Shown: one piece after another, positions 47,591 to 62,179 of the stretch | Layout: every line of letters starts with the position of its first letter | Numbering within the stretch: position 1 is the stretch's first letter | Assembly (NCBI GenBank): GCA_038046725.1 | Contig: JBBSVQ010000001.1 | Coordinates: forward strand, 187,780 to 251,779 | Direction of reading: 5' to 3' | Length of the DNA: 64,000 nt | DNA from: Thermoplasmatota archaeon | GTDB lineage: Archaea; Thermoplasmatota; E2; JACPAO01; JAHFTW01 | Program-made: the position numbers and the translations under genes | Notes under the pieces: model-generated | Databases searched by the model: none | What the model saw: the letters and a program-made list of their open reading frames with translations, nothing else | What the model was told of the DNA's origin: nothing

Positions 47591-50500
47591 TCAGTCCGAG
47601 ACCACCGACCACCTGGCGGGGCTTGGTGCCTCGGGCGGCTTGGGGAACAGCGTCAGCCGCCCCGACGGCACCTGCCAAGGCGAGACCCCCCTAAGGGTCC
47701 GGCTATCGGGCGCGCCCTCCACGGCTGCCCCGGCGGGGACTGGAAGGTCGCCCACCCCCAAACGCCACGCGATGAGGTCGGGGACCTGGGCGGCGGCATA
47801 CAGCTTCCATTGCCCGTCCGCCCGGCCGACGGGCCACATGGGCACGTCCCCGCCGAACACGACGCCGAAAGCTGCCGGTGCCCGCCGTGGGCCGACTACG
47901 GAGAAGACCGCATGCTGGAACGTCAGCGATCCTCGCATTCCCGGAGCAGCGCTGCCCTGGAGCGTGTGGCCGTCCTTCTTTGCGACGAACTGGTCGCCAC
48001 TGGCCTGGACGGTCCACCCGGCTGAGCCGAGCGCACGGGCGATGTGCGGCAAGGAGGAAGTCCAAAGTTCTCGGCTGGCGGTGGTGCCGGGGCGGCGGTT
48101 GCTCCACACCTGGGAAAGCGCCCTTTCCTGGACGTTGCGCCGGGCTTCTTGGAGGGCCTGCCAGGGGTCCATGGTGGGCCCCGCATCCTCGCCTAGCCGG
48201 GTCCGCACCTCGTTCCGGATGGCGTCCGCTACAATCTGCGGGCATTCTCCGACGGCCAGCTCGTAGTCCTCGCGGCGGGCCATGAGCCGGCCGTACATCC
48301 GGGCCTCGACGCTGTTGGGATACCAGAGGTTGACAACGTCGACCTGGGGAGCCCTCTGGCCCAAGCGCGCCACACGCCCAATCCGTTGCTCGAGACGGGC
48401 AGGGTTCCAGGGCACGTCCACGTTGATGACGACGCGGGCAGCCTGTAGGTTCAGGCCTTCGCTGGCCGCGTCCGAGCAGAACACCACCTTCGCAAGCCCC
48501 TCTTCCAGAGCTGCGCGGACCGTCTCCTTCGAGGCACGAGTACGCTGGCCGGAGGACGCCACGAAGGCGTCCTGCCCAGTGTACTTGGCGAAGCCGACGT
48601 CGGGGAACCATTCCTCGAAGGCCTGGATGCACCTGTCGACTGTGTCGGTGTAGCGCGAGAAGACCAGCACTTGGTCACGTTCCAAGTACGACGCCAGCAG
48701 CTGGCGGAGCTCCCTCATCTTTGGGTCAGGTTCCTGCTCGTCCGCATGCAGCACGTCGAGGCGTTCAATCAGGTCCTTGATGTAGACGGCCTCGGCCTGC
48801 TTGGCGGTGGCCACTTCGGCAGGGTCGACCGCGGCGCTAGGGGCGGTGCCTTCGAGGCCTGGGTCCTCGTCGGTGTCGTCGTCCTCTTCGTCGAGCCCCG
48901 ACTCGACGCCAGCTGCGATGCTGTCGAGCCGTTGCATCCGCTTGAGCAGGCTGATGCGGGCCGCGTAGAGGCTCGATGCCAGCCTTTGCTGGTAGGAGCA
49001 TCTCGCGAAGCCGAGCGAAAGCGGCCGGTCCGGGTGCGCGGCCTGCTCGACGCGGCCGTAAGCACGAGACAGGTACTCGTCGACGCTGCGGTAGAACTCC
49101 ACGACTCCCGGGTCGACCTTGGCAATCGGAGCATGCAGGCGCCTTTCGGGGAACCGGTAACCGAACTTCTCGAGCACCTTCCTGGTGTTCCTGATCGTCA
49201 GTAGCGAAGCGGGGTGGGCATCGACCAGAAGAGGGTAAACCTCAGGCCAAGCAGCCCTTGCTTTGATCGTCGCCTGGGCATTGGCCGAATCCTGTGACGC
49301 AAGGGTCTTGGCTGTCGTGGTGGCACCGCTTGCCGGCTGCCAGCCGTAGTCCTTGCGCGCTTGGGCAAGCCACTTCAGGCTCCACTTGGCGTCCTCGAGC
49401 GTCGGCAGCGCGGCGCCGAGCGCCAGCACGCGGAGCGAACGTGCGTACTCGCCTTCACCCTTGACCGGGTCGGTCCAGGCCTGCGGAAGGCCAAGGAGGC
49501 GCAGCAGTGCGTGGAACTCGGCCGGTTCCAACTGGACCGGTGTCGCCGTGAGCAGCAGCAGGTGCGGCACCTTGGTCGCGACGGTGTCGAGCGTGCGCCA
49601 CAGCAAGGTCGGGCGCAACGTGCCGTCGAGGTCGCGTCGCACTCGCGCCGCATGGGCTTCGTCGACGACCATGAGGTCTGGCAGATGCGCCCCAGACAGG
49701 AGGTTCCCTCCGTCGCGGCTGCCGCGGACCAACTGCGCTGACACCAGGCGAAGCGCGGGCGAACCTTTGCCCAGCGGGTGGTCGCTCGGCGCCCGGTGGA
49801 AGCGCCCGTCGGGGTCCACGTAGGCCTTGGCCCCGGAATCGTACCGCCAGAAGCTGAGCCCGAAATGGTGCTGCATCTCTTCCTGCCACTGGCGCATCAC
49901 GTTCTTCGGGGCAAGAATCGTGACGCTCGAGACGGCCTTGGTTCGAAGGAGGTGGGCAATCGCAGCGCCGGCCTCCAAGGTCTTGCCGAGGCCGACCTCG
50001 TCTGCCAGCAGGGCGCGGACGGGCCATCTTCCTAAGCAGTCGAGGAAAGCGCGTTCCTGGTGGGGGAACAGGGCCGACGGGCCCAAGTTGAGAGAGCCAA
50101 GCAGCGGGCTCTCGCGGAAGAACCTGTCAAGCACGGAAGTCCTCGGCGAGGCCTTCGACTGGGCCACGGGCTGGTGCTCGGTCTCGCCGAGGGCGGCCAG
50201 CAGGTGGTTCGCAAACTCCTGGTCAAGGACTCGGACCGCAACGTCCTCGCGGCGACCTTGCCAGATCTGCTCGAAGCTGTCCACGCGCTCCCTCGTCTGG
50301 GCGGGTTCCTCCCAGGAACGGAAGACGTTGAGCTCCTCGTAGTTGGTGGCCATCCCTGGCACGGTCTCGTTGGCGCTGCCACTGGCGGCCACGATGTCGC
50401 CGCCGGCGTCGGTGAAGAGCAGCCGCTTGCTGTGGAAGATTCCGGTTCGTCCGTAAGGGACGGCCACACGTACCTGGAGCAGCCCTTCCTTCATCATCCA

Positions 50501-50902
50501 GGCAACGGTCGCGATGCGGTTCCGCGACAATTCGTCACGAAGGGTCGCCACGCTGTCAAGGAGGCGCTGCCCGACGGCCGCCATGATTTCCTCAGGCGGC
50601 GGCGAGCCAGCGGCTTTTGCCAGGTCAGCGGGCACGTCGTGGACGCCCAGGACGAGGCGCATCTTCCCGCGCCTGCGCCACAGCCCTTCGAGGCCATCGG
50701 CGATCGCGACCAGAGCGGTGACATTGAAGAAGCCGGTCAGCCGGTCGTAGGCGACGGCTTCGGCGAGCGCGGGTTGCACCAACCCTTGCAGGAGAACATC
50801 GGCGCGCCCTTCGTAGAAGGAACGGAGGCCCAGGCCGCGTAGCCCTGCCAATGTCTCACCGACCGAGCGCGTCCAGGACTGCGTCGCAGAACGCCTGGTC
50901 AC
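47591..50902 (-). CDS. PLD-family (HKD) nuclease fused to SNF2-family helicase
   Basis: N-terminal HKD motif ...GIFHSKRLLFTDAGGDIVAASGSANET.... SNF2 ATPase with ...LADEVGLGKT..., DEAH box ...LMVVDEAHAARV..., and helicase-C ...LNLQAARVVINVDVPWNPARLEQRIGRVARLGQ.... Confidence 0.85.
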   Translation of the reverse strand: MTRRSATQSWTRSVGETLAGLRGLGLRSFYEGRADVLLQGLVQPALAEAVAYDRLTGFFNVTALVAIADGLEGLWRRRGKMRLVLGVHDVPADLAKAAGSPPPEEIMAAVGQRLLDSVATLRDELSRNRIATVAWMMKEGLLQVRVAVPYGRTGIFHSKRLLFTDAGGDIVAASGSANETVPGMATNYEELNVFRSWEEPAQTRERVDSFEQIWQGRREDVAVRVLDQEFANHLLAALGETEHQPVAQSKASPRTSVLDRFFRESPLLGSLNLGPSALFPHQERAFLDCLGRWPVRALLADEVGLGKTLEAGAAIAHLLRTKAVSSVTILAPKNVMRQWQEEMQHHFGLSFWRYDSGAKAYVDPDGRFHRAPSDHPLGKGSPALRLVSAQLVRGSRDGGNLLSGAHLPDLMVVDEAHAARVRRDLDGTLRPTLLWRTLDTVATKVPHLLLLTATPVQLEPAEFHALLRLLGLPQAWTDPVKGEGEYARSLRVLALGAALPTLEDAKWSLKWLAQARKDYGWQPASGATTTAKTLASQDSANAQATIKARAAWPEVYPLLVDAHPASLLTIRNTRKVLEKFGYRFPERRLHAPIAKVDPGVVEFYRSVDEYLSRAYGRVEQAAHPDRPLSLGFARCSYQQRLASSLYAARISLLKRMQRLDSIAAGVESGLDEEDDDTDEDPGLEGTAPSAAVDPAEVATAKQAEAVYIKDLIERLDVLHADEQEPDPKMRELRQLLASYLERDQVLVFSRYTDTVDRCIQAFEEWFPDVGFAKYTGQDAFVASSGQRTRASKETVRAALEEGLAKVVFCSDAASEGLNLQAARVVINVDVPWNPARLEQRIGRVARLGQRAPQVDVVNLWYPNSVEARMYGRLMARREDYELAVGECPQIVADAIRNEVRTRLGEDAGPTMDPWQALQEARRNVQERALSQVWSNRRPGTTASRELWTSSLPHIARALGSAGWTVQASGDQFVAKKDGHTLQGSAAPGMRGSLTFQHAVFSVVGPRRAPAAFGVVFGGDVPMWPVGRADGQWKLYAAAQVPDLIAWRLGVGDLPVPAGAAVEGAPDSRTLRGVSPWQVPSGRLTLFPKPPEAPSPARWSVVSD

Positions 50903-51665
50903 CGTCCGGCGACTTCCGCTTCACGGCACCGGCGTCCGCGAGCTGCGACAGCAGGTCCGTGAGGAAGCCCAGCTGCGGACCAGAGAACGGCTTGCCCGTG
51001 TTGTTCTCCTGGTACCCGCGCTTCTTCGCGAAGTCGCCCAACGCTCCTCGTGCCTTCGGCGTTAGCACGTTGTACTGGGCGGCCTTCTTTGCCATGTGCC
51101 AGATGGCCTTCGACGGAAGGTTCGCGACGCGCTCCTCCTCGGAGGGACCTGTGATACCCCTGACTGCGGCCAAGGCCGTCAGATGCGGGCTGCGGCCGGC
51201 CGGCATGCCGTCGACAGCTGCCAGCACCTCGCGCAGCTGGGCGGGCTCAAGTCCGATGATGTCGAGCCAGGTCGTCTTCGGCGGTGGAGCGCGGTCCAGG
51301 ATGGCCAGGATCTCCTCGGGTTCGGCCCCCAGCTGCAGGACCGCGTAGACTTCGGCCTCGGTCGCGCCGACCCATTTGGCAGCCTGGTCGATGTCCAGGC
51401 CGGAGACGGTGTACGTCGCAGAAACCCGTTCGAGGTAGCCCTTGAACGGGTTGCTGGGCGACCGCCAGGCCTCGATGAACGCCTCGATGCGGCCACCGGA
51501 GCCAGACCCCGGAAGGGGCGGGAGCGCCGGTGGAGCCGCAAGGAGAGCAGGGGACGCTTTGGGAGGGGCGACCTTCGCTGCGTGCTTGGGCGTGGACCTG
51601 CTGGGCTTCTCCGATTCCCGCTTCGCCTTGGCGGGGGCCTTCTTCTTGCCGAACACGTCACTCAC
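50856..51665 (-). CDS. Hypothetical protein with Lys/Pro-rich N-terminal tail (269 aa)
   Basis: MSDVFGKKKAPAKAKRESEKPSRSTPKHAAKVAPPKA..., then a helical domain. Overlaps the GHKL gene stop by 8 nt and the PLD-SNF2 start by 47 nt, so the start is uncertain. Confidence 0.45.
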   Translation of the reverse strand: MSDVFGKKKAPAKAKRESEKPSRSTPKHAAKVAPPKASPALLAAPPALPPLPGSGSGGRIEAFIEAWRSPSNPFKGYLERVSATYTVSGLDIDQAAKWVGATEAEVYAVLQLGAEPEEILAILDRAPPPKTTWLDIIGLEPAQLREVLAAVDGMPAGRSPHLTALAAVRGITGPSEEERVANLPSKAIWHMAKKAAQYNVLTPKARGALGDFAKKRGYQENNTGKPFSGPQLGFLTDLLSQLADAGAVKRKSPDGDQAFCDAVLDALGR

Positions 51666-53103
51666 CTGCCGCCGCGTTGAGCCACAGGTTGCGGATGCGA
51701 CGGGCCTCGTCCGGAGGGTAGCCCTTTTCCCGTTCGAGGAAAAGCGCGAGCGAGTCGGACATCGCCAGGAACATTAGCAGCTTCTTGTCCTCGATGTACT
51801 TCACGAGCTTCGAGGAGCTGTTCACGACGGCCTGCAGTTCGCTGCCGCGCTCGGACTCGTACATGTAGGACCAGGGCGTGATGCTCTCGCCGAGGTCTTC
51901 CATCGTGTAGGTCAAGGTCAGCGGTCCGTCAGGGAGGTGGACCTTGTTCGCGTCGACGGTGACTTCCTTTCCCTGGTCGACCTGGACGGCAGGCCCCTTC
52001 CCGGCACCGGGCTCCGCAAAGGCCCCGTCGCCCTGCGCTGCCGTGCCGTCGGGCGCCTTGAACATGGAGGAGAGGACCTTGCCTGCGGCCAACGCCTGCT
52101 GCGCCCCTTGGATGGCGCGAGCGAAGCGGGTGCGGTCGCCCCGGCCACGGATCGTCGTGGCGCTGGCCTTCTCGAAGACCTTCATCTTCTCCTTCATGAC
52201 GTCCGTGGCCGCGCGCCACTCTGCGCTCTGCTTGGCGAAACCTTGCTTGTTGAAGTTCACCGGAACGAAGTCCACGTGCATCTCGCCGACGATGCGGGAG
52301 TTCATTGTATGGACGCGGAACCAGTCCTTGTTCCAGGGCTCCACCAGCTGGTTCAGCTTGTAGAGGTTGATCCCGAACTTGTCGTCGTTGTGGGTGATCT
52401 TGTCGAGGCCGACCCAGCCGTGCACCCTCCATTCGCCGCGCGGCCCGCACTTCTCGTCGATCTCGAAGCGTTTGTCCTCGATGAGGCTGTACGCCTTGGG
52501 AAGCACCACGTCGTTGCCCACGCGGAAGACGTCGCCCCGCTCGATGTGGGGCTTGTAGGCGTGGCCCAGCTGTTCCACGACCGCCCCGCGCATCGTGTCG
52601 GGTTGGCGTAGGTTCCGTACCACGATGGCCGTGCCATGCGCCCGGCCTTCGAGGGGACCGTCCTTGTCGGGCTTGCCCGCATGGATCACATGCTTCCACC
52701 GGACGCCGCTCTTCTGCTTGGCCCGCGCGCGCCACTCGTCAAGGTCGAAGGTCACCGAGTATTCGACGTCCTTGCCGTCGGGGCGAGTGTGGATCTCCCA
52801 GATGCGGCCTAGCGAAGCGCAGGCGGTCTTCATGCCAAGGCCGTAGACGCCCTTGCGCCCCTTCCGCGGAAGGAAGTCGTCCATGTTGACGCCGAGCCTG
52901 ACCGCTTCCGTCAGGATGTCCTGCTCCATGCCGGTGCCGTTGTCGACCACGACGATGCGGTCCCTGGCGAGGGTGACGTCCACCTCAATCGGCGTGTCGC
53001 CGACGCGCGCGTCGATGCTGTTGGCGACGAGCTCCACGATGGCCTCGGGGACCTTGAAGTTCGTAGCCCCAATCTTGTCGAGCATCGACTCGTCCGGAGT
53101 CAT
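51658..53103 (-). CDS. GHKL (Bergerat-fold, MORC/MutL/HSP90-like) ATPase
   Basis: N-box ...EAIVELVANSIDARV..., G1 ...IVVVDNGTGM..., G2/G3 ...GVYGLGMKTACASLG.... Start at the internal ATG (MTPDESML). The 103 upstream codons of the ORF are Arg/Cys-rich. Confidence 0.7.
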   Translation of the reverse strand: MTPDESMLDKIGATNFKVPEAIVELVANSIDARVGDTPIEVDVTLARDRIVVVDNGTGMEQDILTEAVRLGVNMDDFLPRKGRKGVYGLGMKTACASLGRIWEIHTRPDGKDVEYSVTFDLDEWRARAKQKSGVRWKHVIHAGKPDKDGPLEGRAHGTAIVVRNLRQPDTMRGAVVEQLGHAYKPHIERGDVFRVGNDVVLPKAYSLIEDKRFEIDEKCGPRGEWRVHGWVGLDKITHNDDKFGINLYKLNQLVEPWNKDWFRVHTMNSRIVGEMHVDFVPVNFNKQGFAKQSAEWRAATDVMKEKMKVFEKASATTIRGRGDRTRFARAIQGAQQALAAGKVLSSMFKAPDGTAAQGDGAFAEPGAGKGPAVQVDQGKEVTVDANKVHLPDGPLTLTYTMEDLGESITPWSYMYESERGSELQAVVNSSSKLVKYIEDKKLLMFLAMSDSLALFLEREKGYPPDEARRIRNLWLNAAAGE

Positions 53104-53243
53104 GTCGATGGAGATGTCCTTGGAATCACGCGGGATTGAAATCGACCACCATGCCCCAGTTACGGAAGCGCCAAGCACTGAACGGCCTTGCTTAAAAGGA
53201 AGCGGTGGGCCGCAATTATGGCAGGTGGGAGGCCGCCGACGGC

Positions 53244-54038
53244 TTACGCGGCAAGCGCCGCCACGTACTGCTCCCGTTGGCTCCAAGGGACCGGCGTGAT
53301 GGCATAGTTGCGCAGGGCCTGCAAGGCAGTGGGCGACGCCGGCTTCTCGATGTCGTTCACAAGAACGTAGGCGTCGGTCTCCTGGGACCGAGCTTCGCGC
53401 GTATCCTGCCAAGAGAAAATCGCCGCTTCGATTGTGTTCTTGTTCGTGCCGTTGAGCGCGCGCAAGGCGCGCTCTGGTGCCTTGGGCGACTTCGGGATGA
53501 TGAAGTCGAAGTGGTGCGTGTACCCGCTGCGGCCCGAAAGGCGCGAATTGTATACGTAGCGGATTTTGTGGCCATCGAGCCAGGCGGCGACGTCCTCGAC
53601 GAACATCTGCGCGACGTTCGGCTGGGCCATGTAGAACATGTCGCCGACGGCGAGCATAGCCTGCACGATGTCGTGCTTCTTCATGGGGAAATCCCCGGCG
53701 CCCGCGAAAACCTCGAGGCGGTGCTTGTCGCTGCGCTTGACCCCGAATCCATTGAGCACTTCATCGAGGACTGCAAGACGGTGCTTGCCGGCCATCTTGA
53801 AGCCAGACATGGCAAGGTCGTTCAGCACGTAGCCGTCGTCGTGGAGGAGGAATCCCTTGTCGACCTTCTGCACGTAGATCTGTAGCATGTCGTTGTGGCG
53901 GTCGAGGTACGGGGTGGTAATCTCCACGTTCGTGCCGATGTCGCGCAAGGCGGTGCTGTCGCGGAGCCATTTCCAGTGCGCGTCGAGCAGCTCCTTGATC
54001 TCCTCGCCCATGCTTGGCGGAGTGATGGGTTTGGCCAT
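53244..54038 (-). CDS. DUF1828/DUF1829-like protein
   Basis: ...WKWLRDSTALRDIGTNVEITTPYLDRHNDMLQIYVQKVDKGFLLHDDGYVLNDLAMSGF... matches my memory of the DUF1828 N-domain pattern. The family assignment is unverified. Confidence 0.45.
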   Translation of the reverse strand: MAKPITPPSMGEEIKELLDAHWKWLRDSTALRDIGTNVEITTPYLDRHNDMLQIYVQKVDKGFLLHDDGYVLNDLAMSGFKMAGKHRLAVLDEVLNGFGVKRSDKHRLEVFAGAGDFPMKKHDIVQAMLAVGDMFYMAQPNVAQMFVEDVAAWLDGHKIRYVYNSRLSGRSGYTHHFDFIIPKSPKAPERALRALNGTNKNTIEAAIFSWQDTREARSQETDAYVLVNDIEKPASPTALQALRNYAITPVPWSQREQYVAALAA

Positions 54039-54476
54039 TCAGACGAACCCCTGCTGGACCGGCAGCTTCCTGATGTTGCAGTAAGAAAGGAACTGCTCCA
54101 GGGTCTTCTGGACGTCGGTGGGGTGGGTGAACTCAGCGGGCAGCGGGTACGCCCATTTGTCGCCGAAGCCTTCGCGGTAGAGGTGCAGGTGCGGCGCGGG
54201 GACGACTTCGCCGTCGGGATTTCGGTGGGGTGCGCTGCCGAAGTCTAGGCGTGCGAGGATGACGGTCTGGCGGGCGCGGTTCTGGTAGGTGCCCTTGAGG
54301 TCGATGTTGGCGCGGCGGACGTCGAGCTGGAACTCCTCTTTCTCGCCCTCGGCGCGCAGGTCAATCTGCTGCAGGGTGCCGGGGTTGGGGAAGCTCAAGA
54401 CGTCCTTCTTGTCCACGGGGAACTTGGCCGCTTTCAGCAGGCGGTCTGCCCATTCCTGGTTCATCGGCGCCTCCAA
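54039..54476 (-). CDS. Hypothetical protein (145 aa), first gene of the minus-strand operon
   Basis: MEAPMNQEWADRLLKAAKFPVDKKDVLSFPNPGTLQQIDLRAEGEKEEFQLDVRRANIDLKGTYQNRARQ.... Its stop is 1 nt from the next gene. Confidence 0.45.
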   Translation of the reverse strand: MEAPMNQEWADRLLKAAKFPVDKKDVLSFPNPGTLQQIDLRAEGEKEEFQLDVRRANIDLKGTYQNRARQTVILARLDFGSAPHRNPDGEVVPAPHLHLYREGFGDKWAYPLPAEFTHPTDVQKTLEQFLSYCNIRKLPVQQGFV

Positions 54477-54645
54477 TGAGGCGCCTCCCCTCTGAAACCG
54501 TTTCGAGGTTGATCTAACCGGGCCAGCGCCTGTCCAGGCGTTTCATCCCTGTTGGGCGCTTGGGACGCCTTTATGCCCTTAGCGAGGCTCGCATCGTGAG
54601 CACTGGCCATCCTGTTTCGGGTTGGCTGATGCCGGAGCAGGACGC

Positions 54646-57246
54646 ATGGCCAAGTCGGACCGGAAAGACGTCGAGACCTACGAGCACAAGGCCGCCCAGC
54701 GCCCGAACAACCCACCGGTGGGCCTTGTGACGAAGGACACGGAGGCGCGAGAGAAGCGCCGCACCTACCAATACACCGATAACGTCCACGTCAAGCCCCA
54801 CGACAAACACCAGGACCCTGCCCTGGTCTGGGCGACGAAGGCCGAGCGCACTAGCTTCGAGGTCCCGACTGTCAACCTCCACGTCCATGAGCGCATCGAC
54901 CCGCAGACGATTCTGCGCGCGGTGCGCAAGAAGGGTGCGACCGTACAGCAATCCCTTTTCCAGTCCTCGGACCAGAACCTCCCCCTATCCAAGGCAGTCG
55001 AATTCTACGAGCACGCGCAAGGCTGGTCAAACCGGCTCGTCGCCGGCGACAGCCTGCTGGTGATGAACTCGCTCATCGAGAAAGAAGCGATGGCCGGCAA
55101 GGTCCAGATGGTCTACTTCGACCCGCCTTACGGCATCGAGTACAAGTCGAACGCCCAGCCATTCGTCGACAAGCGCAGCGTTGCCGAAGGCGACAAGGAC
55201 GCCGACTTGGACCAAACGCCGGAGCAGATCAAGGCGTTCCGTGACACCTGGGAGCTCGGGATTCACTCCTACCTCTCGTTCATCCGCGACCGGATGTTGC
55301 TGGCGCGTGAACTCCTGACACCAAGCGGCAGCGTGTTCATCCAGATTAGCGACCAAAACCTCCACCACATCCGCGAGGTGATGGACGAGGTGTTCGGCCC
55401 AGGTTGCTACGTCGTCACGATTCCTTTCAAGAAGAAGGGCAGCCAGCGCTCCGGCTTGCTCCGGCCCGTCAACGACTACTTGATCTGGTATACTCGCAGC
55501 CCCGTTGATTCCGGCGTGCCGAAGTTCCACGCGCTCTTCGAAAAGTGGGCCCTCGACCCGGAAACACTCTCGGAATTCCGTTACGTTGAGCTTCCGGGCG
55601 GCAAAGAAATGCTACTCGGGCACCTGAAACGACCTGACGGGTCGGACGTCGACTATGCAAGTCACCCCGAGCTCCTGATGGCGGACTACCCCAAGGCGCG
55701 CCTCTACCGAGCCAACCCTCTCAAGAGTGGCGGCGTTCGAGCCAACCAGAGCCTGCCGTTCACCTACAAGGGCAAGACGTACGAGCCCGGCCCGGGCAAC
55801 TGTTGGAAACACACAGCTCGAACCGATGATGGAAGCCCAAGCGGAATGGACCGCCTCGCCAAGGCCGGCCGGCTAATCGGAACGAAAACCGACTTGCGCT
55901 ACCGCAACTACCTGGATGACTTCGGTTACAAACCTGTGTCCAACTGGTGGGATGGACTCGGCGGGGCCTCCAACCCAATCTACGTCGTGCAGACCAACAC
56001 GGAAGTCGTGAAGCGCTGCATGCTGATGACGACAGACCCGGGCGACCTGGTAATTGACATCACTTGCGGCTCCGGAACGACGGCTTACGTCGCCGAAGAA
56101 TGGGGCCGTCGCTGGATGACATGCGACACGTCGCGCGTTGCGGTGACGCTTGCCAAGCAACGGTTGATGACTGCGGCTTTCCCGTTTTATCGACTTCGTC
56201 ATCCGGACGAAGGCGTTTCGTCCGGACTTCGCTACAAGCAGGTTGCGCACATCACGTCCTCGACGATTGCGAATGACGACAAACCCGTGATGGAAGACGT
56301 GTACGATGACCCCGAAGTCGACGGGTCCAAGGCGCGCGTTACCGGACCCTTCACTGTCGAAGCCGTGCCGGCGCCTGTCGTTCTGAGTTTGGACGGATCG
56401 CATCAAGGGCTGGCACCCTCGAATGGTCAGGACGTTGCCCGGAGTGGCGAAACGGCACGCGAGGATCAGTGGAGGACGCAGCTCATGCAAACCGGGATTC
56501 GAACGCTGAAGGGACAGGTGGTCCGTTTCACGCGTCTGGAACCCGCTGCGGCCAGTACCTACTTGCACGCGACTGGTGAGACCGCCGAGACACCATCTCG
56601 TCGTGTGGCGGTATCGTTCGGGCCCGAACATCACCCCATGGAACGCAAGCAGGTCGAGTTTGCATGGGAAGAAGCGCGCCAGATGGCCGACCGCCCTCAA
56701 CTCCTTGTCTTCGCGGCGTTCTCGTTTGATGCTGACACGGCGAAGGACATCGATAACGCCAAGCCAGACAAGATGGGCATGACGTTCTGGAAGGTCCAGA
56801 TGAACACGGACCTGCTCACCGAAGACCTCCGTAAGGGGGGCAAGTCCGACGACTCGTTCTTCCTCGTCGGCCAACCCGATGTGGCCTTGGAGCGCATCAA
56901 GGACGGCGAACACAAGGGAAAGGTCCGCGTCGTTGTCCGGGGCTTCGACTACTTCGACGTCCGCAGCAGCAAGCTGGAATCGGGCAACTCTTCACGCATC
57001 GCGGTATGGATGCTCGACCCCGACTACGACGGGCGCAGCGTGTTCCCGCAGCAGGTCTTCTTCCCCATGGCTGCCGACGACGAAGCGTGGGGTAGGCTTG
57101 CGAAGAACCTCAACGGCGAGATTGACTTGGACCGCATCAAGGCCTACTGGGGGAAGGAATCTCTCCCCTTCCAGCCCGGCAAGCGCGTCGCCGTCAAGGT
57201 CGTTGATGACCGTGGCATCGAGAGCATGAAGGTCTTGGACGTGTAG
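54646..57246 (+). CDS. mod: Type III-like R-M modification methyltransferase (N6A/N4C beta-class, DPPY)
   Basis: ...NRLVAGDSLLVMNSLIEKEAMAGKVQMVYFDPPYGIEYKSN... (motif IV), then motif I ...LVIDITCGSGTTAYVAEEWGRRWMTCD.... At 866 aa it carries a C-terminal extension. Confidence 0.8.
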   Translation: MAKSDRKDVETYEHKAAQRPNNPPVGLVTKDTEAREKRRTYQYTDNVHVKPHDKHQDPALVWATKAERTSFEVPTVNLHVHERIDPQTILRAVRKKGATVQQSLFQSSDQNLPLSKAVEFYEHAQGWSNRLVAGDSLLVMNSLIEKEAMAGKVQMVYFDPPYGIEYKSNAQPFVDKRSVAEGDKDADLDQTPEQIKAFRDTWELGIHSYLSFIRDRMLLARELLTPSGSVFIQISDQNLHHIREVMDEVFGPGCYVVTIPFKKKGSQRSGLLRPVNDYLIWYTRSPVDSGVPKFHALFEKWALDPETLSEFRYVELPGGKEMLLGHLKRPDGSDVDYASHPELLMADYPKARLYRANPLKSGGVRANQSLPFTYKGKTYEPGPGNCWKHTARTDDGSPSGMDRLAKAGRLIGTKTDLRYRNYLDDFGYKPVSNWWDGLGGASNPIYVVQTNTEVVKRCMLMTTDPGDLVIDITCGSGTTAYVAEEWGRRWMTCDTSRVAVTLAKQRLMTAAFPFYRLRHPDEGVSSGLRYKQVAHITSSTIANDDKPVMEDVYDDPEVDGSKARVTGPFTVEAVPAPVVLSLDGSHQGLAPSNGQDVARSGETAREDQWRTQLMQTGIRTLKGQVVRFTRLEPAAASTYLHATGETAETPSRRVAVSFGPEHHPMERKQVEFAWEEARQMADRPQLLVFAAFSFDADTAKDIDNAKPDKMGMTFWKVQMNTDLLTEDLRKGGKSDDSFFLVGQPDVALERIKDGEHKGKVRVVVRGFDYFDVRSSKLESGNSSRIAVWMLDPDYDGRSVFPQQVFFPMAADDEAWGRLAKNLNGEIDLDRIKAYWGKESLPFQPGKRVAVKVVDDRGIESMKVLDV

Positions 57247-57248
57247 CG

Positions 57249-57695
57249 ATGGCTCAGGCCATGGTCGAGAGACTAAACGCACAACATTGGTTGCTCATCA
57301 CGAGTCGGGCTTCGTGGGAGCGAATGGAGCAAGCTGGCGCGTGGGCATTCGCAGACAAGAGTCTGAAACGGGCGTCCATGCTTCACCGAGGCACGCAGGG
57401 CGTCGTGTACTGCACCGGCGAGAGCTCCTTCGCAGCGGTTATCGAGTTCACCGGTGAATTCCGCCAGCACGCCCGCTCAACGGTCTTCGGGGCCCTCTAC
57501 CCGCACGCCATGCCGTTCCGCGTCGTCGCCGCCCCTGGCTTCTCACTCCCGATGGCGGCCGTGGTTCAGACCCTCGACTTCATCGGCAAGAAGGATTACT
57601 GGTTCAGCTACCTTCAAGGGCAGGCTCTTCGCCCTTTGTCCCGTGAGGACTTCCACGTTCTGGCTTCTCGGTTGCAGACGAAGGGGGCTCGGTGA
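57249..57695 (+). CDS. EVE/PUA-like (modified-base reader fold) protein between mod and res
   Basis: ...AQHWLLITSRASWERMEQAGAWAFADKSLKRASMLHRGTQGVVYCTGESSFAAVIEFTGEF... matches my memory of EVE/ASCH-type PUA-like domains. Its stop overlaps the res start (TGATG). Confidence 0.45.
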   Translation: MAQAMVERLNAQHWLLITSRASWERMEQAGAWAFADKSLKRASMLHRGTQGVVYCTGESSFAAVIEFTGEFRQHARSTVFGALYPHAMPFRVVAAPGFSLPMAAVVQTLDFIGKKDYWFSYLQGQALRPLSREDFHVLASRLQTKGAR

Positions 57696-60523
57696 TGGTC
57701 GGAGTACCGAAGATTGATCGCCTCATCCAGAACAACCCGTACCGCGAGCCTGCGAGGTACTGGAAGTTCAACGCGACCAGCCGCACCTGGCGCTTGACCG
57801 AGGGACGGCGCGAGGCGGGTTACATGGTGCAGTCGGGCGACCCTGACGACCCCGGCGATTATCGGGCACTACGCCTGGCCAACCAGGTCCGTCCGCGCGT
57901 CAAGGAATGGCGGGCCGCCGGCTACCCAGGCATCACGGGAGTGACTCGGCGACTGCTGGAACACTGGACGGACCCCAACGCCCGGACGTTCCCGTTCTTC
58001 TTCTGCCAACTGGAAGCCATCGAGACGCTTGTCTGGCTCGCGGAAGCCCCGCCGTCCGCCAAGCAGGGCCTCGACTGGGAGACCGACGGCGGCGACTTCG
58101 TGCGCGAGTGCTGCAAGATGGCCACCGGCACGGGCAAGACTATCGTCATGGGCATGGTCATCGCGTGGCACGTACTCAACAAGGTCGCGTACCCCCAAGA
58201 CCCGCGTTTCAGCAAAAACATCCTTGTCGTTGCCCCCGGTCTAACGGTCAAGGAGCGCCTTCAGGTGCTGAAGCACCCCGACGGCATCTACCGGGAATTC
58301 AGCATGATTCCCGGCGCCATGCGCGACCAATTCGCCCAAGGCCGCGTCGTTGTCGAGAACTGGCACACCCTCGCCCGCCGCGAAGAGGTCGGCCCACGCG
58401 TCATGCGCAAGAAGATGGGCGCTGAGTCGGACGAAGCGTACTGCCGCCGCGTCCTGGTAGACATCGCGAAAGCCAGCAATCTCCTCGTCATCAACGACGA
58501 AGCCCACCACGCGTGGCGCGTCGACCCGAAACGCAAGGCCGAGTTCAAAGGGGAAGACAAGGACGAAGCCCAACGCGCCACGGTCTGGATCGACGGCCTC
58601 GACATCATCAACAAGGCCCGCGGCATCCTGAAGTGCTACGACTTCACCGCCACGCCCTTCGCATCAGCGGGCAAGGGAAACCAGGAGAACGTCATCTTCG
58701 AATGGGTCGTCAGCGACTTCGGCTTGAACGACGCAATCGAGAGCGGGCTCGTCAAGACGCCGCGCCTGCCAACTGTGGACAACAGCATCCCGGACGCCGA
58801 GACGTTCCGCAGCAGACTCCTGCACATCTACGGTGAGTCCGAAGTGCAGAAGGACTTGAGTCGGAAGGCCAAGCCAGAGGAACCGCTGCCCCAACTGGTT
58901 CGCAACGCCTACGAACTGATGACCAAGGACTGGGCCAGGACGCGCGACGACTGGGCCAAGGAAGGCCATCCCGTTCCCCCCGTGATGATTACTGTCGCCA
59001 ACACCACATTCACGGGAGCCCGCATTGAGCACGGATTCCGGACCCACGACCTGGGCGTCGAAGCTGCACACGACGAGAAGGGATTGCTCCGCATCGACAG
59101 CAAAATGCTCAAGGACGTCGAAGAGCGCGACGCGGGAGTCTCGCTCGCTTTGGACCTGGACGACGAAGCCGAGTTGACGGCGGATCAGCGCGCAGAGCTG
59201 CTCCGCCGTCAGGTCGACAGCGTGGGCAAGCCCGGCAAGCCCGGCGCCCACATTTTCAACCTCGTCAGCGTCATGATGCTGACCGAAGGCTGGGACTGCC
59301 GCACCGTGACCCACATCATGGGCCTGCGCGCGTTCACTTCCCAGCTGCTCTGCGAGCAGGTCATCGGCCGCGGCTTGCGCCGCACGTCGTACGAGACCGA
59401 GCAGGTCGAGTTCCCCGACGGCCGCAAAGAGCAACTCTTCGCCGCCGAGTACGTCAACGTGTTTGGCATCCCGTTCTCGTTCCTGCCACTCGAATCGGAC
59501 GAGACGGGGACATCCAAGAAGCCACGCCCCACCACGGACATCCACACACTAGACGAGCGAAAGGACCTGGCTATCAAGTGGCCGAACGTGCTCCGCATCG
59601 AGCACCGGTTGAGCCACCAGCTCCGCCTGGACACTGCCAAGGTTCGCCCGTTCAAAATCGACCCCTCGCTCGTGAGCACAGAAGCGCAACTGGCGCCCTT
59701 GATGGACAACCGACCAAACCCTGACCGCGCGACGCTCATTGAGCTGCAGGATTTGGCCGACACGCGCTACCGTCAGCAGGCCATTGTGTTCCGCCAAGCG
59801 AAGAGCCTCTTCGAGAACATGAAGGAAGACTGGAAGGGCAACCCCGCCACCCTCGCATCCCAGACGGTCCGCCTCGTGGAGGAATTCCTGGCCAGCGGCA
59901 AGGTGGACTTCGGCGGCGTCAAGTTCGGCGAAGACGACGTCCGCCGTCGCATCGTCTTGGCACTGAACACGCCCCGAATCGTTTACGCCCTGAAGGACGC
60001 CATCACGCAGCAGTCCAGCGAAGAGTCCCACATCGTCCTCGATGCGACACATCCGGTAGGTTCGACAGAAGACATGCTGCCGTGGGCCACGCGCAAGAAG
60101 TCGCGCGAAACGAAGAAGAGCCACGTCAACCGCGTCGTCCTCGACTCGGCATGGGAGGCTTCGGACGCCTACGTCATCGACCAGTCGAAGCACGTCGAGG
60201 CCTGGGCCAAGAACGACCACCTCGGGTTCGAGATCGCCTACATCGAGATGGGCCGGGTTGCCAGCTATCGCCCCGACTTCCTCGTCCGCCTGACCAACGG
60301 CGTCAACCTGGTACTAGAGACGAAGGGAAAGGAGCGCGACGCCGACCGGACCAAGTGGACGGCCATGGACGCTTGGATTGCGGCCGTCAACCAGCACGGC
60401 GGGTTCGGGCAGTGGGAATTCAGGACGTCGCGACTCCCCGGCGAGGCGAAGGAAATCCTTGCAGAGCTTGCCGCACGTGGTCCCGTCGGACCCGCTTCTG
60501 CAGGCAAGGCACAATCTAGTTAG
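57695..60523 (+). CDS. res: Type III restriction enzyme Res subunit (SF2 helicase + C-terminal endonuclease)
   Basis: Walker A ...KMATGTGKTIVMGMV..., DEAH ...LLVINDEAHHAW..., motif VI ...QVIGRGLRR..., and a C-terminal nuclease-like region ...VVLDSAWEASDAYVIDQSKHVEAWAKNDHLGFEIAY.... Confidence 0.85.
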   Translation: MVGVPKIDRLIQNNPYREPARYWKFNATSRTWRLTEGRREAGYMVQSGDPDDPGDYRALRLANQVRPRVKEWRAAGYPGITGVTRRLLEHWTDPNARTFPFFFCQLEAIETLVWLAEAPPSAKQGLDWETDGGDFVRECCKMATGTGKTIVMGMVIAWHVLNKVAYPQDPRFSKNILVVAPGLTVKERLQVLKHPDGIYREFSMIPGAMRDQFAQGRVVVENWHTLARREEVGPRVMRKKMGAESDEAYCRRVLVDIAKASNLLVINDEAHHAWRVDPKRKAEFKGEDKDEAQRATVWIDGLDIINKARGILKCYDFTATPFASAGKGNQENVIFEWVVSDFGLNDAIESGLVKTPRLPTVDNSIPDAETFRSRLLHIYGESEVQKDLSRKAKPEEPLPQLVRNAYELMTKDWARTRDDWAKEGHPVPPVMITVANTTFTGARIEHGFRTHDLGVEAAHDEKGLLRIDSKMLKDVEERDAGVSLALDLDDEAELTADQRAELLRRQVDSVGKPGKPGAHIFNLVSVMMLTEGWDCRTVTHIMGLRAFTSQLLCEQVIGRGLRRTSYETEQVEFPDGRKEQLFAAEYVNVFGIPFSFLPLESDETGTSKKPRPTTDIHTLDERKDLAIKWPNVLRIEHRLSHQLRLDTAKVRPFKIDPSLVSTEAQLAPLMDNRPNPDRATLIELQDLADTRYRQQAIVFRQAKSLFENMKEDWKGNPATLASQTVRLVEEFLASGKVDFGGVKFGEDDVRRRIVLALNTPRIVYALKDAITQQSSEESHIVLDATHPVGSTEDMLPWATRKKSRETKKSHVNRVVLDSAWEASDAYVIDQSKHVEAWAKNDHLGFEIAYIEMGRVASYRPDFLVRLTNGVNLVLETKGKERDADRTKWTAMDAWIAAVNQHGGFGQWEFRTSRLPGEAKEILAELAARGPVGPASAGKAQSS

Positions 60524-60546
60524 GCAGCCCTGAAGCTCGGCCCCTG

Positions 60547-62109
60547 GTGGCGAAGGTCGTCGGTGGGCGGGTGGTCGGGCTTTTCGGCCGCCTTTCGCTG
60601 TCCTGGACGTTCAACGAGCAAGGGCTGGCCGTCCTTCACGGCCCCAACGGCTCAGGGAAGTCGACGTTCCTCCGAATCCTCGAGGCCACGTTCAACCGCC
60701 AGATGGAGGCGCTTTCGATGCTGCCATTCAGGGCGGTCGAGGTGGACTTCGACGACGGGCGCCGCCTGCGCATCCTGGACCGTGCGTTCCTGAACGCTGA
60801 GGTCCGGATTGACGAGGAAGTCCGCGGCCGCTTCGAGGAGCTTGTCAGTGAGGCTATACAGAAAGACGGGAACATCTCGGATGCCGCTGCCGCAGAACTT
60901 TGGGAGGAGGCCGTTAGAGATGCCGACTGGTACTCCTGGGACGACGCGATGCGCGATCCCCCTCCCCACGGGGCCCGCAGGCCTCTGAAACTCGAGCTGA
61001 TGGGCGCCCCGGCCCGCCAGCGCACGACGATCGCCGGGACATACATCAACGAACCTGGAGAACGGCGGAAGCTACTTCGGCCGGGCATCGTCGAGGCGGC
61101 AAACCGGTACCATAGCCCGGTGCTGGACGAACTGAAGGACTTGGTCTGCACGCGGATCAGCGGACCGGTGGGTTCTGCGACCGACCTCGAGACGTTCCGA
61201 GGAAGCCCGGAGGCCCTTCTGCGGCGCATGAACGCAGAGCTGACCGCCATCAGGCGTTTGTTTGCGCCGCCCTATGGCGTGCAGGTACGGCTTCTCGGCG
61301 AGCAGGAGCGCGCCGACCCGGACGACTTCATTGCAGCCCTTCACGAGACCAAGCGGAATCCGCCGCCCGCGGGCGACGCGCAGATGCCCTGGTACAACAA
61401 ACGGGCAGAAGAGGCCGCAGCCAGGGAACGCGAGTGGGACGAGCTGCAGCGGACATTGGGTTCGAAGCGACAAAACGAATCTGGTGCGCCAAAGCCCTCT
61501 GACCGCCAGGCCTTGTCAAACTCGCCAGGGTTCCCCGACGTGGTCAGCTTCTTCGCGACAATCCCTCCCGGGCACTGGCTCGAACGGGAGCTTGCGGGGG
61601 AACTGGCCTATCGGCTGGCCCAAAGTGCTGAACCGAAGGAGCGCACGGCCTTGGCCGAGCGGCTTCGGGAACTGAGTTTGGTGGTAGACGCGCAGGTCAA
61701 GCCCTACGACCGGTTCGTCTACAGGATCAACGAGTTCCTGGACCAGCGGCGGACCGGCGCTTCAATCCACGTCTCCGGCTTCGACGGGCCGCCGGTCGTC
61801 GGGTTCTGGGCCGGCGAGAACGAGATTCCCGGCGACCGGCTGTCCTCCGGGGAGACATCACTGATCGCAATCGCCCACCGCGTCTCCACCTCGTGCGCAC
61901 GTGCGGCGGAAGGGAAGTACGTCCAGCACATCGTCCTGCTCGACGAGCCAGAGGCCAGTCTTCACCCGACCTGGCAGCGAGGCCTGCTCGACCTTGTCAT
62001 GGGTTTCTTCCACAAGGGCCGCGACTGCCTCGTTGTGGCGACGCACAGTCCGGACGTCGCATCGTCCCACCTCTCCGCCATGCAAGAGGTGCCCGACCCT
62101 GCGGCCTGA
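60547..62109 (+). CDS. ABC-type (AAA_15/21, OLD/AriA-like) ATPase
   Basis: Walker A ...LHGPNGSGKSTFLRILEAT..., a long helical insertion, and C-terminal Walker B/D-loop/H-loop ...IVLLDEPEASLHPTWQRGLLDLV...VVATHSPDV.... Confidence 0.7.
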   Translation: MAKVVGGRVVGLFGRLSLSWTFNEQGLAVLHGPNGSGKSTFLRILEATFNRQMEALSMLPFRAVEVDFDDGRRLRILDRAFLNAEVRIDEEVRGRFEELVSEAIQKDGNISDAAAAELWEEAVRDADWYSWDDAMRDPPPHGARRPLKLELMGAPARQRTTIAGTYINEPGERRKLLRPGIVEAANRYHSPVLDELKDLVCTRISGPVGSATDLETFRGSPEALLRRMNAELTAIRRLFAPPYGVQVRLLGEQERADPDDFIAALHETKRNPPPAGDAQMPWYNKRAEEAAAREREWDELQRTLGSKRQNESGAPKPSDRQALSNSPGFPDVVSFFATIPPGHWLERELAGELAYRLAQSAEPKERTALAERLRELSLVVDAQVKPYDRFVYRINEFLDQRRTGASIHVSGFDGPPVVGFWAGENEIPGDRLSSGETSLIAIAHRVSTSCARAAEGKYVQHIVLLDEPEASLHPTWQRGLLDLVMGFFHKGRDCLVVATHSPDVASSHLSAMQEVPDPAA

Positions 62110-62179
62110 GCAGCTTCTCGCAGACGCACGCGGGCGGGCTGCCGCACGCCAATACCTTGCCACTGGGTCGCGACCGGGC

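What the first reader, a model, noticed from the sequence alone, without database searches (positions are those of the whole stretch)
47591..54476. Five-gene minus-strand operon (small protein / DUF1828-1829-like / GHKL ATPase / K-P-rich-tailed protein / PLD-SNF2 helicase) that fits no named defence system
Five co-directional genes are tightly packed. 54039-54476 and 53244-54038 abut. 51658-53103 and 50856-51665 overlap by 8 nt. 50856-51665 and 47591-50902 overlap by about 47 nt. The operon runs divergent from a Type III R-M and sits in a lower-GC island next to an IS. Its components are a Bergerat-fold GHKL ATPase, an HKD phospholipase-D nuclease fused to a SNF2 helicase, a DUF1828/1829-like protein, and two proteins with no recognisable domain. 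PLD plus SNF2 recalls DISARM DrmC/DrmD, and GHKL ATPases occur in MORC-like defence modules. However, there is no DrmA or DrmB (DUF1998), no PglZ/BrxC, and no McrBC/GmrSD partner. From the sequence alone I cannot map the set onto DISARM, BREX, Druantia, Zorya, Hachiman, Mokosh or the other systems I know. This is the best candidate for an undescribed, multi-component DNA-targeting immunity system that couples an ATP-driven translocase/nuclease to a GHKL clamp or sensor.
Basis: partly seen in the sequence, partly recalled or inferred. Interest (0 to 1): 0.85.

Follow-up and report, generated by a model that had tools for sequence, protein, structure and literature searches.

The report
Two defence modules, one MORC-based
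The five genes are two independent cassettes: a known but untested two-gene defence candidate (PDC-M24), and a conserved three-gene set (MORC-type ATPase, small DNA-binding-like protein, nuclease-helicase) that in other genomes travels with a cytosine methylase, a restriction-like kind predicted in 2008 and apparently never tested.

Summary
The five minus-strand ORFs are real, and the domain calls are right. They are not one five-gene system. g1 and g2 (DUF6978; DUF1828/1829) match PADLOC's untested candidate PDC-M24A/B. The same pair occurs alone on bacterial plasmids.

g3-g4-g5 (MORC-like GHKL+S5 ATPase; a 215-aa all-helical protein of an unannotated family; an HKD nuclease fused to a SNF2 motor) is a strictly conserved, co-evolving trio. 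It appears in the same order in all 25 complete independent loci, from archaea and at least five bacterial phyla. None of those loci carries g1 or g2.

Nineteen of the 25 also carry one subfamily of C5 cytosine methyltransferase within 10 kb. Vsr (14 loci), a Sau3AI/MutH-like endonuclease (13) and a fourth ~190-aa gene (19) are frequent companions.

In this archaeal MAG (Thermoplasmatota) the same methylase subfamily, fused to Vsr, starts at 63255, about 10 kb away. PDC-M24, a Type III R-M and an ATPase pair lie in between.

The trio fits the MORC + SFII-helicase restriction-like class predicted by Iyer et al. (2008). Its effector resembles MANTIS MtsD. It is not DISARM, MANTIS, Pbe, Hma or Mza. 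I found no experimental study. Verdict: a new variant of a known kind, of moderate interest.

The parts
51658..53103 (-). g3: MORC-like GHKL + S5 ATPase (481 aa), first gene of the conserved trio
   Evidence: Pfam HATPase_c_3 (1.6e-17) and Morc6_S5 (9.2e-08, above the family cutoff). The GHKL motif residues E24, N28, D31, D54, G58, G88, G90 and K92 are invariant in 37 homologues. The AF2 model has pLDDT 83.6. The closest solved folds are MORC3, SMCHD1, MORC2-DNA, MORC4 and TRAP1, at E about 1e-14.
50856..51665 (-). g4: about 215-aa all-helical core preceded by a window-specific, disordered K/P-rich N-terminal tail (residues 1-55); second gene of the trio; unannotated family
47591..50902 (-). 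g5: N-terminal HKD (phospholipase-D-type) nuclease fused to a SNF2 motor, plus a poorly conserved C-terminal region of about 200 aa; third gene of the trio (the true start is probably TTG at 50851)
   Evidence: Pfam SNF2-rel_dom, Helicase_C and PLDc_2. The motif GIFHxK..D..GSxNET (H157, K159, N178) and helicase motifs I, II, III and VI are conserved in 20 orthologues. RapA is the best PDB sequence match, 7e-30. Best family matches are NCBIfam NF042964 'phospholipase D-like anti-phage protein' (1.7e-98, 331 bits, cutoff 1100) and PADLOC PLD_Helicase (3e-57).
53244..54038 (-). g2: DUF1828 + DUF1829 protein = PDC-M24B; belongs to a separate two-gene module
   Evidence: PADLOC PDC-M24B 3.5e-91. 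Pfam DUF1828 and DUF1829. Absent from all 25 other trio loci. Found next to a g1 homologue on the Acetobacter plasmid pAOF1 and on a S. epidermidis plasmid.
54039..54476 (-). g1: DUF6978 protein = PDC-M24A; belongs to a separate two-gene module
   Evidence: Pfam DUF6978 4.5e-40. PADLOC PDC-M24A 1.2e-48. tblastn finds a homologue directly upstream of the g2 homologue on two plasmids.
63255..64000 (+). 5' part of a C5 cytosine methyltransferase-Vsr fusion (599 aa in the full contig); probable modification partner of the trio, or of an adjacent type II R-M
   Evidence: An HMM built from the trio-linked methylases scores the window ORF at E 7.5e-103. The full gene has PF00145 plus PF03852, and a convergent, weakly BglII-like gene follows it. 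It hits the same PADLOC model, PDLC03329, as a trio-linked methylase (1.1e-147 against 1.5e-150).
54622..63190 (+). Intervening, apparently 'embedded' defence genes: Type III mod (54622-57246), a 148-aa ORF, Type III res (57692-60523), an AAA_15/AAA_21 ATPase (60547-62109) and a 336-aa partner (62180-63190)
   Evidence: PADLOC MTase_III 5e-124, REase_III 6.4e-09, PtuA/AriA-like ATPase hits. Gene calls on the parent contig. Relatives of these genes are essentially absent from the 25 other trio loci.

Best explanation
The region holds two autonomous modules placed side by side in an archaeal defence island.

Module 1 (g1 + g2) is the untested PADLOC candidate PDC-M24.

Module 2 (g3-g4-g5) is a rare, horizontally mobile cassette of the 'prokaryotic MORC + SFII helicase' restriction-like class. 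In most genomes it is linked to one subfamily of C5 cytosine methyltransferase, often with Vsr and sometimes with a Sau3AI/MutH-like endonuclease. In this genome that methylase lies about 10 kb away, and other defence genes appear to be embedded in between.

Proposed mechanism (inferred, not shown):
1. The methylase marks host DNA with m5C, and Vsr repairs the resulting T:G deamination mismatches.
2. The MORC dimer acts as an ATP-gated DNA clamp or sensor on unmarked DNA.
3. g4, with its ParB-DBD-like helical domain, binds DNA and/or bridges MORC to g5.
4. g5 translocates on dsDNA with its SNF2 motor. It cleaves when two single-HKD domains dimerise, as in SauUSI/MtsD-type motor nucleases.

What is shown: gene content, intact catalytic motifs, strict synteny, co-evolution of the trio, and linkage to the methylase. 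What is inferred: defence activity, dependence on methylation, and the order of events.
For: Synteny. The order g3->g4->g5 is kept, tightly spaced, in 25 independent loci: 24 from the genome scan plus one metagenome contig. They come from Haloarchaeobius, Methanomassiliicoccus, Trueperaceae, Actinomycetota/Coriobacteriia, Bacillota, Bacteroidota and Thermoguttaceae.

Co-evolution. Pairwise identities of g3, g4 and g5 correlate at r = 0.94-0.97.

Independence of g1/g2. There are no g1/g2 hits in any of those loci. The g1-g2 pair stands alone on two plasmids and equals PDC-M24A/B.

Methylase linkage. A C5 methylase is present in 19 of 25 loci, often directly adjacent and co-directional. Vsr is in 14, the double-MutH endonuclease in 13, and the fourth gene g6 in 19. 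In five of those loci (L002, L009, L013, L022, L024) the C5 methylase was found with no endonuclease hit in the sequence held. The window's methylase belongs to the same subfamily.

Active sites. Catalytic residues are conserved in g3 and g5. g3 has a MORC-like fold. g4 resembles the ParB DNA-binding domain.

Literature. Iyer et al. 2008 predicted this kind of operon. The HKD-SF2 effector is validated in MANTIS/Gao_RL. PDC systems are candidates from 'guilt by embedding'.
Against: No experiment exists for this cassette or, as far as my searches show, for any prokaryotic MORC system.

The methylase co-evolves only loosely with the trio (r 0.55-0.65, Spearman about 0.33). In half the loci it comes with its own classical endonuclease. 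It may therefore belong to an independent type II R-M that merely neighbours the trio.

The flanks held for six trio loci show no such methylase; some of these are limited by contig ends.

g1-g2 and g3-g5 could still be co-transcribed here, because I did not map promoters or terminators and the sigma-70 scan does not apply to an archaeon.
Confidence: 0.65

Rival explanations
1. All five genes form one new five-component immunity system.
For: The genes are co-directional and closely packed in this genome. The largest gap is 140 nt. The same five-gene arrangement appears on a second assembly, a Logan contig that is near-identical.
Against: None of 25 independent trio loci carries g1 or g2 within 10 kb. 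The g1-g2 pair occurs without MORC or SNF2 on plasmids. PADLOC already models g1/g2 as a self-contained two-gene candidate.
Confidence: 0.05
2. The trio is a modification-dependent (Type IV, SauUSI-like) restriction machine that attacks foreign modified DNA. The nearby m5C methylase belongs to an unrelated type II R-M, and the linkage reflects defence-island clustering.
For: g5 shares the HKD + SF2 architecture of SauUSI-type enzymes. It has a variable C-terminal region that could be a target-recognition domain. Half of the loci carry a complete methylase + Sau3AI/MutH-like endonuclease pair. Methylase-trio co-evolution is loose.
Against: One specific methylase subfamily is linked to the trio across several phyla. 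It often sits in the same co-directional gene string, and in some loci no endonuclease hit was found in the sequence held (L009, L022, L013, L024). A Type IV enzyme next to an m5C methylase risks autoimmunity. No SRA, EVE or other modified-base reader domain was detected in g3-g5.
Confidence: 0.15
3. The trio is a MutL-like repair or maintenance accessory for m5C R-M systems. It would activate Vsr or the MutH-like nuclease and unwind DNA, limiting deamination mutagenesis, and would not be a defence effector.
For: MORC is a MutL relative. The cassette co-occurs with Vsr (14 loci) and with MutH-fold endonucleases (13 loci). From established knowledge, MutL stimulates both MutH and Vsr in E. coli.
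Against: A conserved HKD nuclease fused to a SNF2 motor is an effector architecture of validated defence systems. The cassette has the patchy, cross-domain distribution typical of mobile defence genes and sits in islands with Type III R-M, McrBC-like and Schlafen-type helicase genes. The trio also occurs in loci where neither Vsr nor the MutH-like gene was found.
Confidence: 0.1

Closest known systems
Prokaryotic MORC/paraMORC restriction-modification-like operons (Iyer, Abhiman & Aravind 2008, PMC2292703)
   Same: A GHKL+S5 MORC ATPase beside an SFII helicase (SWI2/SNF2 or Rad25-like, some with an N-terminal HKD domain), with cytosine methylases and Vsr in the neighbourhood. All of these features are seen here and in the related loci.
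   Different: That work is a computational prediction of a broad class. The passages I read name neither the g4 family nor the ~190-aa fourth gene, and they mention N-terminal HKD domains only on Rad25-like helicases, not on SWI2/SNF2 ones. I could not see its figures, so I could not check whether this exact operon is drawn there.
MANTIS / Gao_RL / Type-2 BREX-related systems (bioRxiv 10.64898/2026.09.23.753747; PMC12839542)
   Same: The effector is an N-terminal HKD nuclease fused to an SF2/SNF2 motor. g5's best family matches are to this protein (NF042964 at 1.7e-98, PADLOC PLD_Helicase). The overall logic is also parallel: ATPase + small protein + methylase + HKD-helicase.
   Different: The ATPase here is a MORC GHKL protein, not a DUF499 AAA+ protein. 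The small protein is g4, not DUF3870/3780. The methylase is C5, not N6-adenine. g5 scores far below the family cutoff (331 against 1100 bits).
PADLOC candidate PDC-M24 (guilt-by-embedding candidates, bioRxiv 10.1101/2024.01.29.577857)
   Same: g1 and g2 match PDC-M24A (1.2e-48) and PDC-M24B (3.5e-91), are adjacent, and lie between parts of other defence systems.
   Different: None found at the level tested. The candidate itself is untested and its mechanism is unknown.
DISARM (class 1 and class 2)
   Same: It contains a SNF2 helicase (DrmD-like; NCBIfam 4.8e-61 but below the cutoff), a PLD nuclease (DrmC-like) and, in class 2, a C5 methylase.
   Different: No DrmA/DrmB (DUF1998) was found, and no further conserved helicase occurs in the 26 loci. 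PLD and SNF2 are fused here. A MORC ATPase and g4 are present, which DISARM lacks.
[not shown]
   Same: The more distant GHKL paralogues recovered with g3 (about 35 loci) sit directly after a C5 methylase, so the GHKL + m5C theme is shared. g3 weakly hits MzaB.

Membership tests
PDC-M24 (PADLOC candidate) | A protein matching the PDC-M24A model | tested here: met
   g1: PDLC04538, E 1.2e-48, covering 3-138 of 146 model positions. Pfam DUF6978, 4.5e-40.
PDC-M24 (PADLOC candidate) | An adjacent protein matching the PDC-M24B model | tested here: met
   g2: PDLC04539, E 3.5e-91, covering 4-255 of 255 model positions. It abuts g1. The same pairing occurs on two plasmids.
PDC-M24 (PADLOC candidate) | Demonstrated anti-phage activity | not testable with these tools
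   PDC systems are described as 145 untested candidates.
Prokaryotic MORC R-M-like systems (Iyer et al. 2008) | A GHKL + S5 (MORC) ATPase with intact ATPase motifs | tested here: met
   Pfam HATPase_c_3 plus Morc6_S5 above the cutoff. The motif residues are invariant. Foldseek returns MORC3/2/4 and SMCHD1 at E about 1e-14.
Prokaryotic MORC R-M-like systems (Iyer et al. 2008) | A conserved neighbouring SFII helicase and a nuclease | tested here: met
   HKD-SNF2 g5 is present in all complete loci (25 of 25 plus the window). The HKD and helicase motifs are conserved.
Prokaryotic MORC R-M-like systems (Iyer et al. 2008) | A DNA (mostly cytosine) methylase and Vsr in the neighbourhood | tested here: met
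   A C5 methylase occurs in 19 of 25 related loci and Vsr in 14. In the window the methylase-Vsr fusion starts at 63255, about 10 kb away and not adjacent.
Prokaryotic MORC R-M-like systems (Iyer et al. 2008) | Restriction of unmodified DNA | not testable with these tools
   No experimental report was found.
DISARM | DrmA helicase plus DrmB (DUF1998) | tested here: not met
   Clustering of all ORFs in the 26 trio loci shows no further conserved helicase or DUF1998-like gene. The PADLOC DrmA hit on g5 covers the helicase core only.
DISARM | DrmD SNF2 helicase at the family threshold | tested here: not met
   NCBIfam DISARM_DrmD scores 207 bits against a cutoff of 610.
MANTIS / Gao_RL / Type-2 BR | MtsD-type HKD + SF2 effector | tested here: inconclusive
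   NF042964 matches nearly full length (g5 residues 31-896) at 1.7e-98, but at 331 bits against a cutoff of 1100. g5 is a homologue, not an equivalog.
MANTIS / Gao_RL / Type-2 BR | DUF499 AAA+ ATPase, DUF3870/3780 small protein and N6-adenine methylase in the operon | tested here: not met
   g3 is a GHKL protein, g4 has no family hit, and the linked methylase is C5.
PbeABCD / CxC-ABC-DndE systems | CxC-type ABC ATPase (PbeC) and a DndE cognate (PbeD) beside the HKD-helicase (PbeA) | tested here: not met
   Only the N-terminal 400 aa of g5 hit PbeA (1.3e-54). g3 and g4 hit no Pbe model. No ABC ATPase is conserved in the trio loci. Component definitions are from PMC10853773.
Hma | DUF3883-type SNF2 with a C-terminal PD-(D/E)xK nuclease, a DUF1156 methylase and a DUF499 ATPase | tested here: not met
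   g5 has an N-terminal HKD nuclease instead. HmaA is only its sixth-best PADLOC hit. No HmaB or HmaC hits were found.
[not shown]
   [not shown]

The most novel reading that the evidence does not exclude
The MORC-g4-HKD/SNF2 cassette, with its C5 methylase, is a distinct and so far uncharacterised methylation-coupled restriction system. In it a MORC clamp takes the place that the DUF499/BrxC-type ATPase holds in BREX-related/MANTIS systems. It would be a working prokaryotic example of the MORC + SNF2 + 5-methylcytosine partnership that eukaryotes use for transposon silencing. It would also define two new protein families: g4, and the ~190-aa fourth gene found in most related loci.
Probability: 0.35. 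Interest if true: 0.75.

Novelty: new variant of a known kind. Interest (0 to 1): 0.5.

Why it matters
Eukaryotic MORC ATPases silence transposons together with DNA methylation and SNF2 remodellers. They are thought to descend from bacterial restriction-like systems, and my literature searches found no such prokaryotic system characterised biochemically.

This cassette is compact, with three to six genes. It is conserved across archaea and bacteria, and its catalytic motifs are intact. That makes it a practical entry point for testing what a prokaryotic MORC does and how a GHKL clamp controls a motor nuclease.

The result also corrects the annotation. The apparent five-gene operon is a mosaic, which illustrates how defence genes become embedded between the parts of other systems.

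Tried and rejected
- The word-indexed homologue search with g4 alone found only 2 proteins. This wrongly suggested an orphan gene. phmmer on the fetched loci and a profile search later showed a family.
I rebuilt the alignment from database hits.
- The afdb50 fold library was unavailable.
- PDB profile searches for g4, g1, g2 and the fourth gene g6 gave nothing significant.
- Hma was considered because it is 'helicase, methylase, ATPase'. I rejected it because its parts are DUF3883, DUF1156 and DUF499.
- Pbe was considered because of the PbeA hit. I rejected it because there is no CxC ABC ATPase and no DndE.
- The V. cholerae GHKL-Shedu paper is unrelated.
- The group-3 MORC operon of Iyer et al., with a helicase C-terminal DThhQXuRhFG motif, was considered. 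I saw no such motif when reading the g5 sequence by eye, but I ran no pattern search.
- I did not run the sigma-70 promoter/terminator scan because the host is an archaeon. A TATA-like TTTTAAG in the g2-g3 gap was noted but is not evidence.
- Four literature searches for a named MORC-based defence system found none.

Full report
OBSERVATION. The five minus-strand ORFs exist as described, and all but the 264-aa g2 show coding-type GC3 of 0.82-0.88 (g2 did not pass the GC3 filter). Pfam gives the following:
- g1 (54039-54476): DUF6978.
- g2 (53244-54038): DUF1828 + DUF1829.
- g3 (51658-53103): HATPase_c_3 + Morc6_S5.
- g4 (50856-51665): no hit.
- g5 (47591-50902): weak PLDc_2 + SNF2-rel_dom + Helicase_C.

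The host is a Candidatus Thermoplasmatota archaeon MAG (GCA_964365265.1, contig CAYIPJ010000002.1). Some details need correcting:
- The 145-aa protein does have a Pfam family.
- The 47-nt g4/g5 overlap probably comes from taking the longest ORF. A TTG at 50851 fits the orthologues' N-termini.
- GC is 0.66-0.67 over 47-52 kb and 0.62-0.63 over 52-55 kb, against 0.63-0.69 for most of the window. The clearly low-GC stretch is 43-47 kb.
- The 'IS' is a single DUF772 fragment 3.8 kb away.

TWO MODULES, NOT ONE SYSTEM. PADLOC-DB assigns g1 and g2 to the two-gene candidate PDC-M24 (A: 1.2e-48; B: 3.5e-91). g3 and g4 match no system model, and g5 matches generic HKD/SNF2 effectors.

I collected 70 homologues of g3 and aligned a subset of them. 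With that alignment I fetched 77 genomic loci. In every locus that has a close g3 orthologue and enough sequence, the order g3->g4->g5 is kept with tight spacing. This holds for 24 complete genome loci plus one soil-metagenome contig. The hosts are Haloarchaeobius, Methanomassiliicoccus, Trueperaceae, Actinomycetota/Coriobacteriia, Butyrivibrio, Blautia, Sarcina, Sharpea, Bacteroidales/Prevotella and Thermoguttaceae.

None of these loci has a g1 or g2 homologue within 10 kb. Conversely, g1-g2 pairs sit side by side on the Acetobacter plasmid pAOF1 (48% and 46% identity) and on a Staphylococcus epidermidis plasmid next to an integrase. No MORC or SNF2 gene is nearby in either case.

Pairwise identities of g3, g4 and g5 are tightly correlated (r 0.94-0.97), as expected for a unit inherited together.

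WHAT ELSE TRAVELS WITH THE TRIO. I clustered all ORFs of the 26 trio loci and annotated the recurrent families with Pfam. Among the 25 loci other than the window's own:
- a ~190-aa protein with no family ('g6') lies directly after g5 in 19;
- a C5 cytosine methyltransferase (PF00145) is present in 19;
- Vsr (PF03852) is present in 14;
- a double-MutH, Sau3AI-like endonuclease (PF02976) is present in 13.

The methylase is often immediately upstream of g3 and co-directional, or immediately downstream of g6. In five loci (L002, L009, L013, L022, L024) the C5 methylase was found with no endonuclease hit in the sequence held.

The window lacks g6. An HMM built from the trio-linked methylases nevertheless hits the ORF that runs off the window end at E 7.5e-103. 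The parent contig shows a 599-aa methylase-Vsr fusion, which starts at window position 63255. A convergent, weakly BglII-like gene follows it. The window methylase and a trio-linked methylase hit the same PADLOC model, PDLC03329 (1.1e-147 and 1.5e-150).

The window layout is therefore, in order:
- trio (minus strand);
- PDC-M24 (minus strand);
- Type III mod, a 148-aa ORF, Type III res (plus strand);
- an AAA_15/21 ATPase and a 336-aa partner (plus strand);
- the C5 methylase-Vsr fusion (plus strand);
- the endonuclease-like gene (minus strand).

The simplest reading is that other defence genes have become embedded between the trio and its usual neighbour. This is the pattern that defined the PDC candidates in the first place.

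The methylase co-evolves with the trio only loosely (r 0.55-0.65, Mantel p <= 5e-4, Spearman about 0.33). Whether it is the trio's own partner or part of a neighbouring type II R-M remains open.

THE PROTEINS.

g3: the GHKL motif residues (E24, N28, D31; D54, G58; G88, G90, K92) are invariant. The AF2 model (pLDDT 83.6) shows GHKL + S5, then a long helical hairpin, a disordered linker and a small beta/alpha C-terminal domain. Foldseek returns MORC3, SMCHD1, MORC2-DNA, MORC4 and Hsp90/TRAP1 at about 1e-14.

g5: it has a single HKD motif (H157, K159, GSANET). SNF2 motifs I (GLGKT, K307), II (DEAH, D414/E415), III and VI are conserved in 20 orthologues, and the last ~200 residues are poorly conserved. 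RapA is the best solved relative by sequence. The best family match is NCBIfam NF042964, 'phospholipase D-like domain-containing anti-phage protein', nearly full length at 1.7e-98 but far below its cutoff. The MANTIS preprint describes Gao_RL (PADLOC 'GAO_29'), now named MANTIS, as carrying such an HKD/PLD + SF2 effector, MtsD. I infer that PADLOC PLD_Helicase and NF042964 model that effector; I did not confirm the mapping.

MECHANISM (inferred). By analogy with MORC clamps, with HKD nucleases that need dimerisation, and with SauUSI/MtsD-type motor nucleases, I propose the following. The methylase marks self DNA. MORC, helped by the DNA-binding-like g4, recognises or clamps unmarked DNA in an ATP-dependent way and recruits or licenses g5. 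g5 then translocates and cuts once two HKD domains meet. Vsr limits the mutagenic cost of m5C.

The alternatives are a modification-dependent (Type IV) machine, or a MutL-like accessory for Vsr/MutH-type nucleases. Both are less consistent with the operon-level methylase linkage and with the effector architecture, but neither is excluded.

COMPARISON WITH KNOWN SYSTEMS. The cassette belongs to the class predicted by Iyer, Abhiman and Aravind (2008): prokaryotic MORCs with SFII helicases, nucleases (including N-terminal HKD), cytosine methylases and Vsr. It fails the defining features of five named systems:
- DISARM: no DrmA/DrmB.
- MANTIS/Type-2 BR: no DUF499, no DUF3870/3780, no N6 methylase.
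- PbeABCD: no CxC ABC ATPase or DndE.
- Hma: its parts are DUF3883, DUF1156 and DUF499.
- Mza: MzaB scores 33 bits against a cutoff of 850.

Four literature searches found no named or tested system with this composition. The searchable library is incomplete, so a recent description could have been missed.

VERDICT. It is wrong about a single five-gene system and about the kind being undescribed. The trio is a rare, untested variant of a kind predicted in 2008, and its small g4 component belongs to no annotated family. Interest is moderate (0.5). It would rise if experiments show a methylation-coupled MORC restriction mechanism.

Noticed in passing
L002:5990-6565, L011:15388-15957 and 17 further loci (directly downstream of the g5 homologue); absent from the window: A fourth conserved gene of about 190 aa ('g6') follows the HKD-SNF2 gene in 19 of 25 related loci. 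It has invariant motifs TW(V/I)RxTFRHQMSLGxD..D..K and SPNDA...SFEKL. It has no hit in Pfam, NCBIfam, PADLOC or a PDB profile search. It could be a small nuclease or a regulator.
   Followed up: partly
window 60547-62109 (+) and 62180-63190 (+): An AAA_15/AAA_21 (ABC-type) ATPase of 520 aa has PtuA/AriA-like PADLOC hits. A 336-aa protein with no family hit follows it. This looks like another two-gene defence candidate embedded in the island.
   Followed up: partly
window 57249-57695 (+): A 148-aa ORF is wedged between the Type III mod and res genes and overlaps both by a few bases. It has only a weak NCBIfam hit (PRK00809, 'hypothetical protein', 5.6e-08).
   Followed up: no
window 43000-47200: This stretch has low GC (0.56-0.57) and lies downstream of g5. 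It holds a 595-aa ORF (44461-46248, -) and a 168-aa ORF (46224-46730, -) with no hit in Pfam, PADLOC or NCBIfam. It also holds a small winged-helix/MarR-like ORF (46838-47188, -) and a DUF772 transposase fragment (43278-43763, +). It is possibly a separate acquired element.
   Followed up: partly
L081:12709-15334 (same contig, just beyond the window end): The C5 methylase that the window end cuts is fused to a Vsr domain (599 aa). A convergent 294-aa gene with a weak BglII-endonuclease hit (E 0.002, below the cutoff) follows it. In other genomes the equivalent neighbour is a Sau3AI/MutH-like enzyme. If the BglII-like call holds, both would be endonucleases of GATC-containing sites; this is my inference from general knowledge of those enzymes.
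   Followed up: partly
[not shown]
   Followed up: partly
L006:12150-15155 and L019:11750-14978: In the Trueperaceae locus and in one Bacteroidales locus the HKD-SNF2 gene is split into two or three ORFs. This is either decay of the effector or assembly error.
   Followed up: no
L015:12235-16953, L016:15971-20165, L029:15971-20183: An McrBC-like pair (AAA_5 ATPase plus a DUF2357/PDDEXK_7 nuclease) lies directly downstream of the cassette in three Bacillota loci. L016, L027 and L029 also carry a GIY-YIG/Schlafen-type helicase nearby. This confirms a defence-island context.
   Followed up: no
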